Made by a program: the position numbers and the translations under genes. From Candidatus Uhrbacteria bacterium (GTDB taxonomy: Bacteria; Patescibacteriota; Patescibacteriia; UBA9934; GWF2-40-263), in the NCBI GenBank assembly GCA_016188425.1, contig JACPHX010000020.1, positions 1,821-65,820 of the forward strand: DNA of 64,000 nucleotides. Direction: 5' to 3'. The notes beneath the pieces are model-generated. The model was not told the DNA's origin. It searched no databases and saw nothing but the letters and a program-made list of their open reading frames with translations. Positions within the stretch are counted from its first letter, which is position 1, and each line of letters opens with the position of its first letter. Positions 47,369 through 61,539 of this stretch are shown here, one piece after another.

Positions 47369-48520
47369 ATGCTGACCAGCGATATGTATCAATTACTTAC
47401 CCAAAAAGGTTCTGCGCGCAGAGGTCGTCTTACGACGGCACATGGCAGCATCGAGACGCCTTGCTTCATGCCGATCGCGACCAGGGGGGTCGTGGAGCAC
47501 ATGAGCCCCAAGGACATGGAAGCGATGGGGGCGTCGATTGTGTTATCGAACACGTATCATCTCCTCCTGCGTCCAGGGCTTGAGGACATGCGTCGGCTCG
47601 GTGGTCTCCATTCACTAATGGGATGGAATCGACCGCTCATCACCGATAGCGGCGGATACCAAGTCTTCAGTTTGTCGGACATGAATGAGACCCGCGAGGA
47701 AGGGGTGACGTTCAAGTCGCATCTCGATGGGTCCAAGATCACGCTGACCCCCGAGGGATCGATGGAGATGCAGCAGGCCATCGGCGCCGACATCATCATG
47801 CAATTCGACGACGTGGCCGCCGGCCAATCGTCGCGAGAGAGATTTGAGGATGCGATGGAGAGGTCTTTGCGATGGGCGGGGCGGTGCAAGGAAAGCTGGC
47901 AGCTTGCAGCAGGCAGCTTGCAGCCAGATTGCTGCCCGCCGCCCGCTGCAAGCTGCCAGCTTTTATTCGGCATCGTCCAAGGCGGCACGCACGAGGATTT
48001 GCGGTTGCGCTCCATCGAGGGCTTGAAATCGATCGGTTTCGATGGGTACGCCATCGGCGGTTTGTCCGTCGGCGAACCGCGGGAGGATATGTACCGCATC
48101 ACGATGATGTGTTGCGCGAATCTGCCGGAGGATCGCCCTCGCTATTTCATGGGAGGAGGAATGCCCGAGGAGATCGTCCGCAACGTCCTCTCTGGCGTCG
48201 ATATGTTCGATTGCGTGCTTCCGACGAGGAATGGACGTCATGGATCGCTCTTCGTCTGGAAACAAGATCCTTCGACGATCAACTGGGCATCGGCGCCGAC
48301 GGATTTCTATGAGCAGGTGCGCATCGAGAATGCGGGGCACCGATTCAATATGGAGCTGATCGAGCGGTTTGCGGACGACGGCTTTGGCACCGTAACTTAT
48401 GCGTATCTGCACCATCTTTTCCGGGTGGGGGAAATGGAGGCACAACGACTCGCCACCATCCAGAACCTCCGATTCTATTTGCGCCTCATGCATGAGCTTC
48501 GCCTTTTCTTACAGTCCTGA
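47369..48520 (+). CDS. tgt: queuine tRNA-ribosyltransferase with an in-frame ~23-codon palindromic insertion
   Basis: [36 protein letters not shown]...DSGGYQV...LFGIVQGG...[11 protein letters not shown]. The insertion [23 protein letters not shown] lies between RCKE and LFGIVQGG. Confidence 0.9.
47894..47962. repeat. GCTGGCAGC-armed palindromic element inside tgt
   Basis: AGCTGGCAGCTTGCAGC (47894..47910) ... GCTGCAAGCTGCCAGCT (47945..47961): perfect 17-bp terminal inverted repeats, 69 bp (23 codons) in frame. Confidence 0.7.
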
Positions 48521-49604
48521 CCACGCGGAGATCCCTCCGCTTCTCATCGTGGGCGCCATCGCGTTTGTCGTGTCCGTGCTTTTGACGTTGGCCGTGCGCT
48601 CTCTTGCATCGAGATGGCAGGTCGTCGACGCACCAGACGCCACTCGACGATTACATGCGCGCCCCGTTCCGCTTCTTGGGGGCTTGGCTATTTTTCTTGC
48701 CGTCGCTCTCGTGACTTGGTTCGCTCTGGATCGGGACTTTGGCCTCACGAGCGGCCTCATTACATGGAAGCATTATCTTGGCATCCTCATCGGAGCCGGT
48801 ATCCTCCAAATCGGCGGCGCTCTGGATGACGTGAAACGTTGGCCGGCGAAGTATACATTTTTCTTTCCTGTCCTCGCGGGAATCGCGGCTCTCGCCGGCG
48901 GCCTTGAGGTGGGAAAACTCACCAACCCCCTCGGGGGAATGATTGCTATCTCCGGGATTTTTTCGATGGTGGGCGTGTTCATGTGGCTGATGTTTATGGT
49001 GTACACGACGAAGCTTCTCGATGGCGTCGACGGTCTGTCGACAAGCGTTGGTTCTGTGGCGACGCTGATGATCCTTTGCCTCACGCTGACGACGACGTAT
49101 TTTCAACCCGATGTCGCTCTGTTTGCATCGATCATCCTCGCGGCGTTCCTCGGGTTCCTCATGTTCAATGCGCCCAAAGCGTCCATCTTCTTAGGAGAAG
49201 GCGGAAGCACGCTCATCGGTTTCCTCGTCGGTGTCCTCGCCATCATCTCTGGAAGCAAAGTGGCGATTGCCTTGCTGGTCTTGGGGATCCCGCTGTTGGA
49301 TATGGTATGGGTGATCGTGCGGAGGTGGTCCGGCGGAGCCGGATCCGGCTCCGCCGGAGAGGAGGGAGGTTGGAAGAGGGTTCTGATCGGTGACCGGACG
49401 CATCTGCACTACCGTCTATTGGATCAAGGATGGAACCCCAGGCAAGTCGTTTTGTTCCAGACGGCGGCAAGTGCCCTTTTGGGGATCGGGGCATTGGTGT
49501 TGCAGAGCAGGGAGAAGGTATTACTGCTGTTGGTTCTTGTTGCATCTATGGCTATTTTAACAACCATCCTGTCTCTGAAAGAAGATGGGGAGAAAAAGTT
49601 GTAA
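48492..49604 (+). CDS. polyprenyl-phosphate N-acetylhexosamine-1-phosphate transferase (MraY/WecA family)
   Basis: Multi-TM protein with [27 protein letters not shown] and [12 protein letters not shown] 28-bp palindrome inserts [12 protein letters not shown] after RRW. Confidence 0.7.
49330..49357. repeat. 28-bp palindrome family, copy in the MraY/WecA-family gene
   Basis: CCGGCGGAGCCGGATCCGGCTCCGCCGG, in frame, encoding GGAGSGSAG. Confidence 0.8.
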
Positions 49605-49640
49605 GCAATTTTTGGAATTGCTGTGCCTGTATTGTAATTC

Positions 49641-49678
49641 ATACTGTGGCCAAGGGGCATGCCCCTTGGCCACAGTAT
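49641..49678. terminator. 38-bp perfect palindrome (hairpin) containing the CCAAGGGG core
   Basis: ATACTGTGGCCAAGGGGCATGCCCCTTGGCCACAGTAT. Confidence 0.6.
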
Positions 49679-60463: not shown

Positions 60464-60526
60464 AGGATGGATGGGGAGGTTGCCGTTCTGTTTGAGTCTT
60501 AACGCATCCCCCTTTTGAAGGGGATT
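60448..60526. repeat. two CC(T/C)CCTTTTGAAGG(A/G) hairpin motifs downstream of murC
   Basis: tcctccttttgaaggatgg and atcccccttttgaaggggattg. Confidence 0.4.
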
Positions 60527-60555
60527 GCGTCGGAAAATGTGGATAGTTTGAAACT

Positions 60556-61539
60556 ATGAATGACATTACATCCTCGCTTCTTTCTAGGTTCGGGACGCGA
60601 TTGAAACAAAACGAGCTTCTCTCCAAACACACCAACTTTCGCATCGGCGGTCCTGCTCGTTGGTACCTTGAAGCCAAGACGGAGGCGGATGTGATGGATG
60701 CTTGGAAGATCGCGCACGAGAATAGTGTGCCTGTATTTGTGTTGGGTGGAGGATCGAATACGCTCGCCCCCGACGAAGGATATCCTGGTCTCGTGATCCA
60801 GATCGCGATGCGTGATATCTCGATCGACGGCCAAGACGTCGTCGCGGACGCTGGCGCCTTGTCTGTTGCGGTCGCTCGGCAAACTGGGAAGGCGGGGCTT
60901 TCTGGGATGGAGTGGGCGATTTCGCTTCCGGGGACGATCGGGGGAGCGGTGCGCGGGAATGCGGGATGCTTTGGAGGGGAGACGAAGGATCGTCTCGTGT
61001 CCGCACGGGTGCTTCGTGAGGGCAAGGTGGTTGAGATGAGCAAGAAGGATCTCGATTTCCACTACCGCCACAGTTCCATCAAAGGAACGAACGACATAGT
61101 ATTGTCAGCGAAGTTTCATTTGGAAAAAGGGGATGCGGATGAGCTGCAAAAAAAGATGGAGGAGATTTTGGGGAAGAGGAAGGCTTCGCAGCCGATGTCG
61201 GCTGGGTCGGCGGGGTGTATGTTTAAGAATTGTGAGCTGGCAGCTGGCAGCTCGAAGCTGGCAGCGATGATCGAAAAAAAAATACCGTTACCAAACAACT
61301 GCCCGCTGCCCGCTGCCCGCTGCCAGCTTCCCGCCGGCTGGCTCATCGACCAAGCAGGCCTCAAGGGCCTCCGCATCGGCGATGCCCAGATAAGCGACGT
61401 GCATGGGAATTTCGTCGTAAACCTCGGAAAAGCCACGGCAGAAGATGTGATGGCCGTCGTCCACAAGGCCAAGGAGACCGTGAAGGAGAAGTTTGGTATA
61501 GAATTGGAGGAGGAAGTGCAGTTAATTGCCCAAGGGTGA
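60556..61539 (+). CDS. murB: UDP-N-acetylenolpyruvoylglucosamine reductase with an in-frame ~30-codon palindromic insertion
   Basis: FRIGGPARWYLEAKTEADVMDAWKIAHENSVPVFVLGGGSNTL... (FAD-binding) ...SAGWLIDQAGLKGLRIGDAQISDVH. Insertion CELAAGSSKLAAMIEKKIPLPNNCPLPAARCQLP. Confidence 0.9.
   Translation: MNDITSSLLSRFGTRLKQNELLSKHTNFRIGGPARWYLEAKTEADVMDAWKIAHENSVPVFVLGGGSNTLAPDEGYPGLVIQIAMRDISIDGQDVVADAGALSVAVARQTGKAGLSGMEWAISLPGTIGGAVRGNAGCFGGETKDRLVSARVLREGKVVEMSKKDLDFHYRHSSIKGTNDIVLSAKFHLEKGDADELQKKMEEILGKRKASQPMSAGSAGCMFKNCELAAGSSKLAAMIEKKIPLPNNCPLPAARCQLPAGWLIDQAGLKGLRIGDAQISDVHGNFVVNLGKATAEDVMAVVHKAKETVKEKFGIELEEEVQLIAQG
61233..61322. repeat. GCTGGCAGC-armed palindromic element inside murB
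   Basis: GAGCTGGCAGCTGGCAGCTCGAAGCTGGCAGC ... GCTGCCCGCTGCCCGCTGCCAGCTTC; 90 bp, in frame. Confidence 0.7.

What the first reader, a model, noticed from the sequence alone, without database searches (positions are those of the whole stretch)
47894..61322. GCTGGCAGC-armed palindromic element inserted in frame in two essential genes (tgt and murB)
A 69-bp segment in tgt (47894..47962) and a 90-bp segment in murB (61233..61322) both start and end with AGCTGGCAGC / GCTGCCAGCT inverted termini. Each is a multiple of 3 in length. Each encodes a Cys/Pro/Ala-rich peptide ([57 protein letters not shown]) lying between conserved blocks of the host enzyme. This looks like a MITE-like selfish element tolerated as a protein insertion.
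Basis: partly seen in the sequence, partly recalled or inferred. Interest (0 to 1): 0.8.

Follow-up and report, generated by a model that had tools for sequence, protein, structure and literature searches.

The report
Translated heptamer-armed palindromes in housekeeping genes
Two related hairpin-forming DNA repeats are read in frame inside the tgt and murB genes of an uncultured Uhrbacteria (candidate phyla radiation) bacterium; they are part of a genome-wide crowd of such hairpins, but the murB copy overlays a native protein segment rather than being a clean insertion.

Summary
Their four 31-nt arms align without gaps as (AGCNNGC)4AGC. Both are read in frame.

The context is much larger than reported. 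The window comes from a Candidatus Uhrbacteria contig and holds 14 long hairpins, against about 0.5 expected. Several families have arms built of tandem 7-, 9- or 10-nt units. In-frame palindromes or tandem arrays also sit in secA, murC, dnaK and recR.

"Inserted MITE" is only partly right. In tgt there is a net gain of about 16 aa in a loop that is hypervariable among Uhrbacteria and holds unrelated hairpins in other species. In murB the palindrome overlays a native 29-31-aa segment that is also present in E. coli MurB, with a net gain of only 3-5 aa. There are no target-site duplications, no shared interior and no matching transposase ends.

Best reading: these are non-autonomous, stop-free hairpin repeats tolerated in variable surface segments. 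They were probably generated and homogenised by slippage and template switching rather than by transposition. This is a new variant of a known kind (compare Rickettsia palindromic elements).

The parts
47369..48520 (+). tgt (tRNA-guanine transglycosylase), 383 aa, host gene
   Evidence: Translation. PDB match E = 1e-95. Identical to P0001, Candidatus Uhrbacteria.
47892..47924 (.). tgt palindrome, left arm: AA + AGCTGGC AGCTTGC AGCAGGC AGCTTGC AGC
   Evidence: The 7-nt autocorrelation is 0.73.
47925..47930 (.). tgt palindrome, 6-nt loop CAGATT
47931..47963 (.). tgt palindrome, right arm (GCTGCCC GCCGCCC GCTGCAA GCTGCCA GCTTT)
   Evidence: RNA fold -57.9 kcal/mol, z = -6.4; antisense -66.9 kcal/mol, z = -8.0.
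60556..61539 (+). murB (UDP-N-acetylenolpyruvoylglucosamine reductase), 327 aa, host gene
61235..61265 (.). murB palindrome, left arm: AGCTGGC AGCTGGC AGCTCGA AGCTGGC AGC
61266..61297 (.). murB palindrome, 32-nt spacer. It encodes ...MIEKKIPLPNN and contains I-P at the native offset.
61298..61328 (.). murB palindrome, right arm: A CTGCCCG CTGCCCG CTGCCCG CTGCCAGCT
   Evidence: RNA fold -47.2 kcal/mol, z = -6.6.
62562..62654 (.). secA in-frame hairpin with (GGAGGGG)n and (CCACCTC)n arms. It is the same family as the intergenic copy at 6330-6476.
   Evidence: (z = -3.8).
59712..59779 (+). murC in-frame perfect tandem repeat (GGAGGTTGGAGGGA) x 4.4. Net gain of about 14 aa, equal to three extra 14-nt units.
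45111..45142 (.). dnaK C-terminal tail: 32-nt perfect palindrome GTCCGGCGAAGCCGGATCCGGCTTCGCCGGAC, in frame
   Evidence: (I16).
51674..51707 (.). recR: 34-nt perfect palindrome of the same family as the dnaK one, in frame ([11 protein letters not shown])
   Evidence: (I22).
19602..19726 (.). Intergenic hairpin with 9-nt-unit (GGGGCGCAA) arms, copy 1 of a three-copy dispersed family (the others are 30675-30799 and 52516-52627)
30675..30799 (.). Same family, copy 2, opposite orientation, between convergent genes
52516..52627 (.). Same family, copy 3, between recR and dnaB
47242..47331 (.). Intergenic hairpin with CAAGGGNNN 9-nt units, just upstream of tgt
61531..61612 (.). Hairpin with CAAGGGNNN 9-nt units that overlaps the murB stop codon and precedes hpf
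6330..6476 (.). Intergenic hairpin with (GGAGGGG)n and (CCTCCCC)n arms

Best explanation
The two segments are related, non-autonomous, hairpin-forming repeats. Their arms are about 4.4 tandem heptamers (AGCNNGC, that is GCAGC plus two variable bases).

They belong to a dense population of short palindromes in this Uhrbacteria genome. Several sequence families have arms made of tandem 7-, 9- or 10-nt units. These are mostly intergenic but repeatedly occur in frame in housekeeping genes.

Shown: both are transcribed as part of the ORF and read through. They lie in protein segments that vary in length and sequence among orthologues and that model as surface helix or loop excursions. The in-gene copies are free of stop codons in almost all six frames.

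Inferred: they are neutral or slightly deleterious passengers, not parts of the enzymes' mechanism. They arise and are kept palindromic by replication errors rather than by a transposase. The proposed errors are slippage of the heptamer unit plus intrastrand template switching between the two arms (quasipalindrome conversion). Seeding would come either from ectopic copying of another repeat or from native GAGCTG/CAGCTT codons.

This accounts for murB, where one arm replaces native codons with no length change, the spacer keeps native residues, and only the other side gains 3-5 aa. It also accounts for tgt, where a short native loop is replaced with a net gain of about 16 aa.
For: Relatedness: the four arms align without gaps, with 22 of 31 columns invariant, and variation is confined mainly to heptamer positions 4-5. 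The (GCAGCNN)3 pattern occurs only at these loci, 9 times against 0 expected.

Population: the window has 14 hairpins with arms of at least 18 nt, against 0.47 in shuffles. Periodic arms are seen. The three copies of the GGGGCGCAA family share both arms and interior while their flanks are unrelated.

In-frame copies in other genes: secA, murC, dnaK and recR.

Variable sites:
- The Tgt loop is 7 aa in the shortest orthologues and up to about 60 aa in others, with non-homologous inserts.
- Two other species carry unrelated hairpins at that same loop: L117 z = -7.3 and L119 z = -3.6.
- The SecA linker is 25-69 aa long across 101 orthologues.

murB overlay:
- The native segment is 29 aa in 92 of 114 orthologues.
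- The nearest clade has 29-31 aa.
- The E. coli equivalent aligns straight through.
- E2, I18 and P19 sit at the native offsets (anchored test p = 0.005).
- The right side shows no similarity and is 3-5 aa longer.

In situ slippage demonstrably operates in this genome: murC equals a native-like sequence plus three perfect extra 14-nt units.

Tolerance:
- In the AlphaFold2 model of Tgt the insert is a helix extension plus a low-confidence loop at 183-193.
- The MurB segment models as strand-helix-loop-strand at pLDDT 72-82.
- In-gene elements are stop-free in 4-6 of 6 frames, while several intergenic ones have no open frame.

Literature: template switching homogenises and expands inverted-repeat arms, including in coding DNA (PMC8604942, PMC7202029, PMC13100816).
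Against: - The shared 31-nt arms in two unlinked genes require a common source or strong convergence. Pure in situ origin does not explain that by itself.
- At least one family in this genome (GGGGCGCAA) behaves as a true dispersed multicopy element, so some copying mechanism between loci exists.
- The evidence that the murB spacer is native rests on three residues and on a test designed after the pattern had been seen. An unanchored HMM test found no residual homology (p = 0.135).
- Only 64 kb of the genome could be examined.
- No relative closer than about 60-70% protein identity exists in the databases searched, so no empty or filled allele pair was seen.
- Expression and translation were not tested.
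Confidence: 0.5

Rival explanations
1. MITE-like transposition. A non-autonomous element with AGCTGGCAGC terminal inverted repeats was inserted by a transposase into tgt and murB. It survived because the insert is in frame, stop-free and in a surface loop.
For: - Both loci have inverted termini and arms that are 84-87% identical.
- Size is 72-94 nt.
- tgt shows a net gain of about 16 aa relative to the nearest orthologues.
- Other Uhrbacteria carry unrelated hairpins at the same Tgt loop.
- The GGGGCGCAA family shows that hairpin repeats do disperse in this genome.
- A DDE_3 transposase gene is present in the window.
- There is precedent: Rickettsia palindromic elements (RPEs) and 107-bp Correia elements occur in frame in genes (PMC2229807).
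Against: - No target-site duplication is present at either locus.
- The interiors are unrelated.
- In murB the palindrome overlays a native segment of nearly equal length, with native-like residues in the spacer.
- The termini coincide with native-like codons.
- No inverted repeat flanking the IS630-like gene resembles the termini.
- Only two copies occur in 64 kb.
Confidence: 0.25
2. Selected nucleic-acid structure. The hairpins (in mRNA or as DNA cruciforms), or their arrays of GCWGC sites spaced 7 bp apart, would be functional. Possible roles are translation pausing, mRNA stability or processing, termination, or binding or decoy sites for a sequence-specific protein or a restriction-modification system.
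For: - The predicted hairpins are very stable (z about -6.5).
- The same architecture recurs at gene ends and between convergent genes: 30675-30799, 61531-61612 and 49640-49679.
- Arm variation is confined to 2 of 7 positions, leaving GCAGC invariant.
- GCWGC is otherwise under-represented in the window, 120 against 172 +/- 13 in mononucleotide shuffles.
- Heptamer-armed hairpins with the same core recur upstream of genes in Acidobacteriota and other phyla.
Against: - The hairpins are not conserved in any orthologue of tgt or murB.
- Arm mismatches are not G-U-compensated on the sense strand; the antisense fold is the more stable one.
- There is no Rfam match.
- The positions within the two genes differ (45% and 69% of gene length).
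- The GCWGC baseline ignores codon bias.
Confidence: 0.15
3. Adaptive protein loops. The Cys/Pro/Ala-rich peptides would be selected for a protein-level role, for example metal binding that replaces the zinc site this Tgt has lost, or a new interaction surface.
For: - This Tgt lacks the CxCxxC...H zinc-site residues that most orthologues keep, and the insert adds three cysteines.
- The MurB segment still models as the native strand-helix-strand.
Against: - P0002 and P0006 also lack the zinc-site cysteines yet have no insert.
- The peptide composition is simply what (AGCNNGC)n encodes in its rotating frames.
- The tgt insert has low model confidence.
- The same DNA architecture occurs in intergenic DNA.
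Confidence: 0.05

Closest known systems
Rickettsia palindromic elements (RPE; Ogata et al. 2000, as reviewed in PMC2229807)
   Same: Palindromic repeats found both intergenically and fused in frame within conserved housekeeping proteins of a small-genome bacterium. They are translated and judged neutral or slightly harmful.
   Different: RPEs are 105-146 bp with a conserved full-length consensus and many copies. Here the elements are 72-94 nt, share only the arms, and the arms are tandem heptamers. The murB copy overlays a native segment instead of adding one. The lineage is unrelated (Patescibacteria).
Bacterial MITEs with open frames (107-bp Correia/NEMIS, ERIC, YPAL; PMC2229807)
   Same: They are small, have terminal inverted repeats and form a long stem-loop. 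Stop-free variants occur inside genes, while variants with stops stay intergenic. The same pattern is seen here.
   Different: Those MITEs have TA target-site duplications and conserved interiors. Neither is seen here.
Inverted pairs of heptamer simple-sequence repeats (GGGAATC in Xanthomonas, GGGGAYT in Nostoc; PMC4692102) and cyanobacterial tandem heptanucleotides
   Same: The architecture matches: two tandem heptamer arrays in convergent orientation that can form a stem-loop. There are 70-75 such cases per Xanthomonas genome.
   Different: Those repeats are G-quadruplex-prone, intergenic and under-represented in coding DNA. The AGCNNGC arrays here are not G-tract repeats and are translated.
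Coding palindromes in Nematomorpha mitochondrial genes (PMC6649704)
   Same: Long inverted repeats are embedded in functional protein-coding genes, with the arms encoding native protein sequence. This is the best analogue for the murB case.
   Different: Those repeats are mitochondrial, perfect, up to 284 bp, and both arms encode conserved residues. Here the arms encode a poorly conserved segment and have a tandem substructure.
REP / REPIN elements with RAYT transposases (PMC3733652, PMC3116915, PMC2817692)
   Same: Short GC-rich palindromes in high copy number. The heptamer-armed AGCTGGC hairpins found in Acidobacteriota lie upstream of genes, like REPs.
   Different: REPs are extragenic, 20-40 bp, carry GTAG or CGTC tags, and are tied to a RAYT gene. 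None of these applies to the two elements, and no RAYT gene was seen among the ORFs scanned.

Membership tests
MITE | Terminal inverted repeats | tested here: met
   AGCTGGCAGC and GCTGCCAGCT form the termini, and the arms of 30-33 nt are 83-88% complementary.
MITE | Target-site duplication flanking the element | tested here: not met
   The flanks are GCAAGGAA|...|TTTATTCG in tgt and AATTGTG|...|TCCCGCC in murB, with no direct repeat. The three copies of the GGGGCGCAA family also show none.
MITE | Multiple dispersed copies sharing a full-length consensus, including the interior | tested here: not met
   There are two copies in 64 kb. The arms are shared but the interiors are 6 nt against 32 nt and unrelated. 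The rest of the genome was not available.
MITE | Parent autonomous element or transposase with matching ends | tested here: inconclusive
   The only transposase-like gene among the 28 ORFs scanned is an IS630-like DDE_3 gene at 9717-10355. The nearby inverted repeats are unrelated to AGCTGGCAGC. This covers the window only.
Rickettsia palindromic elements (RPE) | In-frame occurrence within conserved protein genes, read through | tested here: met
   The ORFs are intact, with conserved blocks on both sides in the same frame.
Rickettsia palindromic elements (RPE) | Sequence homology to the RPE consensus, size 105-146 bp, Rickettsia lineage | tested here: not met
   The size is 72-94 nt and the host is Candidatus Uhrbacteria. 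Sequence was not compared to RPE consensus sequences because none was available in the tools.
Rickettsia palindromic elements (RPE) | Net insertion relative to orthologues that lack it | tested here: inconclusive
   tgt gains about 16 aa over the shortest and nearest orthologues. murB gains only 3-5 aa, over a native segment that is also present in E. coli.
REP / REPIN | Extragenic location | tested here: not met
   Both elements lie inside ORFs.
REP / REPIN | GTAG or CGTC tag at one end and an associated RAYT (Y1 transposase) gene | tested here: not met
   No such tag is present at either end. No Y1 transposase was found among the 28 ORFs scanned. The whole genome is not testable with these tools.
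Inverted heptamer SSR pairs (Xanthomonas/Nostoc type) | Two tandem heptamer arrays in convergent orientation | tested here: met
   Tandem Repeats Finder reports period 7 with 4.4-5.1 copies in each arm. The lag-7 autocorrelation is 0.73-0.96.
Inverted heptamer SSR pairs (Xanthomonas/Nostoc type) | G-tract unit able to form a G-quadruplex; intergenic bias | tested here: not met
   The AGCNNGC unit has no G3+ tracts, and both copies are coding. The GGAGGGG family in the same window does have G-tracts.
Coding palindromes (Nematomorpha type) | Inverted-repeat arms overlay native coding sequence without disrupting the protein | tested here: inconclusive
   In murB the left side keeps the native length and the E/I-P anchors (p = 0.005), and the segment models as the native strand-helix-strand. 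However, no residual homology was found by HMM. In tgt there is a net insertion.

The most novel reading that the evidence does not exclude
Candidate phyla radiation (CPR) bacteria such as this Uhrbacterium may have a replication- or repair-coupled process that writes unit-periodic palindromes in place over tolerant segments of housekeeping genes as well as into spacers. Examples are GCAGCNN heptamers and 9- and 10-nt units. Under this reading the arrays would not be mere junk. They could be recognised as structured or sequence-periodic sites, for example by a GCWGC-specific modification or restriction activity or by a heptad-reading nucleic-acid-binding protein. Alternatively they could be removed at the RNA level. 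Either way this would be a previously undescribed class of genome-wide cis elements shared in architecture with Acidobacteriota and other phyla.
Probability: 0.1. Interest if true: 0.85.

Novelty: new variant of a known kind. Interest (0 to 1): 0.55.

Why it matters
In-frame palindromic repeats have been a curiosity, documented mainly in Rickettsia and a few enterobacterial and neisserial MITEs. Here a reduced-genome CPR bacterium shows six housekeeping genes within 64 kb carrying translated palindromes or tandem arrays.

The murB case suggests that palindromes can overwrite an existing protein segment in place rather than only add to it. If that is general, three things follow:
- It bears on how mutation processes shape proteins in lineages with small populations and reduced DNA repair.
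- It explains part of the odd low-complexity inserts that are common in CPR proteins.
- It warns annotators and structure predictors that such segments are DNA-driven rather than protein-driven.

I found no report of this for CPR bacteria in the searchable literature. That library is incomplete.

Tried and rejected
- Rfam at gathering thresholds over the window found only two tRNAs, so no known RNA family covers the hairpins.
None of those listed came from Patescibacteria, so it gave no further copies from this lineage. It did reveal similar heptamer hairpins in other phyla.
- I looked for in-frame heptamer hairpins in those other phyla. The long spanning ORFs were spurious, and the real genes start just downstream of the elements.
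- An unanchored HMM test for residual homology of the murB peptide to the native segment was not significant (p = 0.135).
- The idea that our MurB descends from short-loop (PPGH-type) relatives and regained a segment by insertion was rejected. The neighbour-joining tree without the segment places it among sequences that carry the segment.
- The IS630-like transposase as mobiliser was rejected because it has no matching ends.
- Sense-strand RNA selection was rejected because the arm mismatches are A-C on the sense strand and G-U only on the antisense strand.
- RNA-level excision of the tgt hairpin would leave RCKE-LFGIV, which is shorter than any orthologue. I judged this unlikely, but it is untested.
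- Zinc-site compensation by the insert's cysteines was rejected because relatives without the zinc site have no insert.
- The long minus-strand ORFs 30271-32121 and 61522-63999 were rejected as antisense artefacts.
- The metagenome scan was not used, because no relative closer than about 60-70% identity exists in the protein database that includes those metagenomes.

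
Full report

The tgt ORF (47369-48520, +) and the murB ORF (60556-61539, +) are intact. Both match solved structures of tRNA-guanine transglycosylase (E = 1e-95) and MurB (E = 6e-51).

AGCTGGCAGC and its reverse complement occur six times in the window against 0.09 expected. All six lie at the two loci.

The full palindrome is 47892-47963, with 33-nt arms that are 88% complementary and a 6-nt loop.

In murB the motif starts at 61235 and the closing terminus is 61319-61328. The palindrome is 94 nt, not a multiple of three. The quoted 34-aa peptide actually spans 102 nt.

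Both arms of both elements are tandem heptamers. The four 31-nt arms align without gaps as (AGCNNGC)4AGC. 22 of 31 columns are invariant, and variation is essentially limited to two positions per unit.

The pattern (GCAGCNN)2GCAGC, allowing one mismatch, occurs nine times against zero expected, and only at these loci.

Predicted RNA hairpins are far more stable than shuffles: z = -6.4 for tgt and -6.6 for murB.

The same protein sequences are on record from Logan assemblies, and locus L001 carries the identical tgt element. An assembly artefact is therefore unlikely.

**2. What organism, and what surrounds it?**

The proteins are 100% identical to entries from a Candidatus Uhrbacteria bacterium (Patescibacteria/CPR) on a 66,980-bp contig. 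The next relatives are only about 56-70% identical.

The window is crowded with hairpins. My scan finds 14 with arms of at least 18 nt, against a mean of 0.47 in dinucleotide shuffles.

Many have arms built of short tandem units:

| Unit | Period | Locations |
|---|---|---|
| GGGGCGCAA | 9 nt | 19602-19726, 30675-30799, 52516-52627 |
| CAAGGGNNN | 9 nt | 47242-47331, 61531-61612 |
| (not named) | 10 nt | 25783-25934, 45212-45305 |
| GGAGGGG / CCNCCTC | 7 nt | 6330-6476, 62562-62654 |

The three GGGGCGCAA copies align over arms and interior while their flanks are unrelated and carry no target-site duplication. That family is therefore a genuine dispersed repeat.

After rejecting two long antisense ORFs, the gene map shows more in-frame cases:
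- **secA** carries the 62562-62654 hairpin in a linker that is 25-69 aa long in 101 orthologues and 67 aa here.
- **murC** carries a perfect (GGAGGTTGGAGGGA) x 4.4 array. This equals a native-like sequence plus three extra units, or +14 aa.
- **dnaK** (45111-45142) and **recR** (51674-51707) carry the same 32-34-nt perfect palindrome.

In-gene elements are stop-free in four to six of six frames, whereas several intergenic ones have no open frame.

**3. Insertion or not?**

*tgt.* The stretch between RWAxRCK and LFGIVQGG is 7 aa in the shortest Uhrbacteria orthologues, including the nearest relative. It reaches about 60 aa in others, with mutually unrelated low-complexity inserts.
- Ours is 23 aa, a net gain of about 16 aa.
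- The flanking K-E-S and Q-L-L residues match native consensus, so the palindrome replaces the short native loop rather than sitting beside it.
- DNA from two other species shows unrelated hairpins in exactly this loop: L117 with nested 15- and 12-nt perfect arms (z = -7.3), and L119 with 27-nt arms (z = -3.6).
- This loop is therefore a recurrent home for palindromes.

*murB.* The picture differs.
- 92 of 114 orthologues have a 29-aa segment at this very place, with consensus YEIxxDEELQRLKxxxDIPxEMLxxRRIS.
- A neighbour-joining tree built without the segment puts our protein among sequences with 29-31-aa segments. It does not group with the three short-loop (PPGH) sequences.
- E. coli MurB has an equivalent 31-aa segment that HMMER aligns straight through.
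- Our 34-aa peptide is thus only 3-5 aa longer than the native segment.
- Aligned from the left without gaps, E2, I18 and P19 fall at the native offsets (p = 0.005 against shuffles). This test was devised after I had seen the pattern.
- The right side shows no similarity (p = 0.35), and an unanchored HMM test is not significant.

**4. Protein context.**

AlphaFold2 models are confident overall, with mean pLDDT 88.4 and 88.5.
- In Tgt the insert prolongs a helix to residue 182 and then forms a low-confidence loop at 183-193.
- In MurB the segment models as strand 226-229, helix 233-240, loop, strand 255-258, at pLDDT 72-82. That is a pattern like the native one.
- Both are consistent with tolerated surface segments.

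**5. Mechanism.**

The shown steps are:
- the two elements are related;
- they are read in frame;
- they lie at variable sites;
- they lack stop codons;
- in situ tandem expansion operates in this genome (murC).

The inferred steps are as follows.
- The absence of target-site duplications, the unrelated interiors, the termini overlapping native-like codons, and above all the murB geometry fit slippage plus intrastrand template switching between quasipalindrome arms better than one-step transposition. In murB one side is replaced with no length change, native-like residues sit in the spacer, and only the other side is longer.
- Template switching of this kind is documented to homogenise and expand inverted repeats, including in coding DNA (PMC8604942, PMC7202029, PMC13100816).
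- The shared 31-nt arms in two unlinked genes still need a common source. Ectopic templating from another copy, or genuine mobility, cannot be excluded. The GGGGCGCAA family shows that copying between loci does occur.

I put about 0.5 on the replication-error, tolerated-passenger model, 0.25 on MITE-like transposition, 0.15 on a selected nucleic-acid structure or site array, and 0.05 on a protein-level role.

**6. Beyond this genome.**

- 45 of 124 elements there have heptamer-periodic arms with the same GCAGC core.
- Several occur per genome in Acidobacteriota, Vicinamibacterales, Thermoanaerobaculia and Solirubrobacterales.
- Where checked, they lie just upstream of genes and not within them.
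- The architecture is therefore widespread. The in-frame occupancy is the unusual part.

**7. Comparison with known systems.**

- The closest functional analogue is the Rickettsia palindromic element (in-frame, translated, tolerated). Stop-free MITEs such as the 107-bp Correia element are also close (PMC2229807).
- The architecture matches inverted heptamer SSR pairs in Xanthomonas and Nostoc (PMC4692102).
- The murB overlay most resembles the coding palindromes of Nematomorpha mitochondria (PMC6649704).
- Membership in MITE, RPE or REP fails on tested defining features: target-site duplication, conserved interior, size, extragenic location and end tags.
- I found no report for CPR bacteria in the searchable literature.

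**8. Verdict.**

The feature is real, and its interpretation needs correcting. It is a new variant of a known kind and of moderate interest. The main value lies in the density of translated palindromes in a CPR genome and in the in-place overlay seen in murB.

Noticed in passing
window 59712-59779 (murC): A perfect 14-nt tandem repeat (GGAGGTTGGAGGGA) x 4.4 lies inside murC and is read in frame as GRLEGGGWREEVGGRRLEGGGG. Orthologues are about 14 aa shorter here. Gain or loss of one or two units would frameshift the gene.
   Followed up: partly
window 62562-62654 (secA, which runs off the window end): A hairpin with (GGAGGGG)n and (CCACCTC)n arms lies in frame in the variable acidic linker of SecA. 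An intergenic copy of the same family is at 6330-6476. Other CPR SecA proteins show other low-complexity inserts in this linker.
   Followed up: partly
window 45111-45142 (dnaK tail) and 51674-51707 (recR): The same 32-34-nt perfect palindrome GTCCGGCGRAGCCGGATCCGGCTYCGCCGGAC is read in frame in two genes on opposite strands. It gives nearly the same peptide in each ([11 protein letters not shown] and [11 protein letters not shown]).
   Followed up: partly
window 48300-48420 (tgt C-terminal part): This Tgt lacks the zinc-site cysteines (CxCxxC...H) that most Uhrbacteria orthologues and the solved bacterial enzymes keep. Relatives P0002 and P0006 lack them too.
   Followed up: no
window 19602-19726, 30675-30799, 52516-52627 (and a fragment at 45090-45111): A three-copy dispersed hairpin family of 112-125 bp, with arms of 9-nt GGGGCGCAA units and a shared interior (CGCGCTTGCGCGCCTATGTT). 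There are no target-site duplications, and one copy is in the opposite orientation.
   Followed up: yes
window 9717-10355 (-), with inverted repeats at 9583-9598 / 9681-9696: An IS630-like DDE_3 transposase ORF of 212 aa, probably a fragment. A nearby 16-nt perfect inverted repeat is unrelated to the hairpin families.
   Followed up: partly
window 49640-49679: A 40-nt perfect palindrome (CATACTGTGGCCAAGGGGCA|TGCCCCTTGGCCACAGTATG) lies just after the glycosyltransferase-4 gene, in a terminator-like position.
   Followed up: no
window 12909-13009: An AT-rich pair of 47-nt inverted repeats (77% complementary) lies between the HflX-like GTPase gene and a Fic-domain gene. Its composition is unlike the rest of the window.
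   Followed up: no
whole window: GCWGC is under-represented: 120 sites against 172 +/- 13 in mononucleotide block shuffles, and about a sixth of the sites lie in the two elements. This may hint at a GCWGC-specific restriction-modification system. The baseline ignores codon bias.
   Followed up: partly
L002-L116 (genome-contig hits): Heptamer-armed hairpins with the same GCAGC core occur several times per genome in Acidobacteriota MAGs, often around a CAGCGGATCACGCGTGATCCGCTG core. Planctomycetota have a different REP-like family (GGCAAGCTGGCAGCTTGCCCTACGG), and L009 holds a 107-bp tandem array of it. Arthrobacter species share a conserved hairpin, gcgcgAGCTGGCAGC...GCTGCCAGCTcgcgc.
   Followed up: partly
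L117 3530-3636 (Tgt of another Uhrbacterium, P0069); also MurB P0123 and Tgt P0095: A different hairpin family encodes peptides such as ...CEEG..TKQSS...IAS..LPRND... It is inserted in frame in Tgt and MurB of other CPR genomes, so in-frame hairpins are recurrent across the group.
   Followed up: partly
window 18304-18349: A (GAG) x 15 trinucleotide run lies inside the methyltransferase-domain ORF 17818-18546 (-).
   Followed up: no
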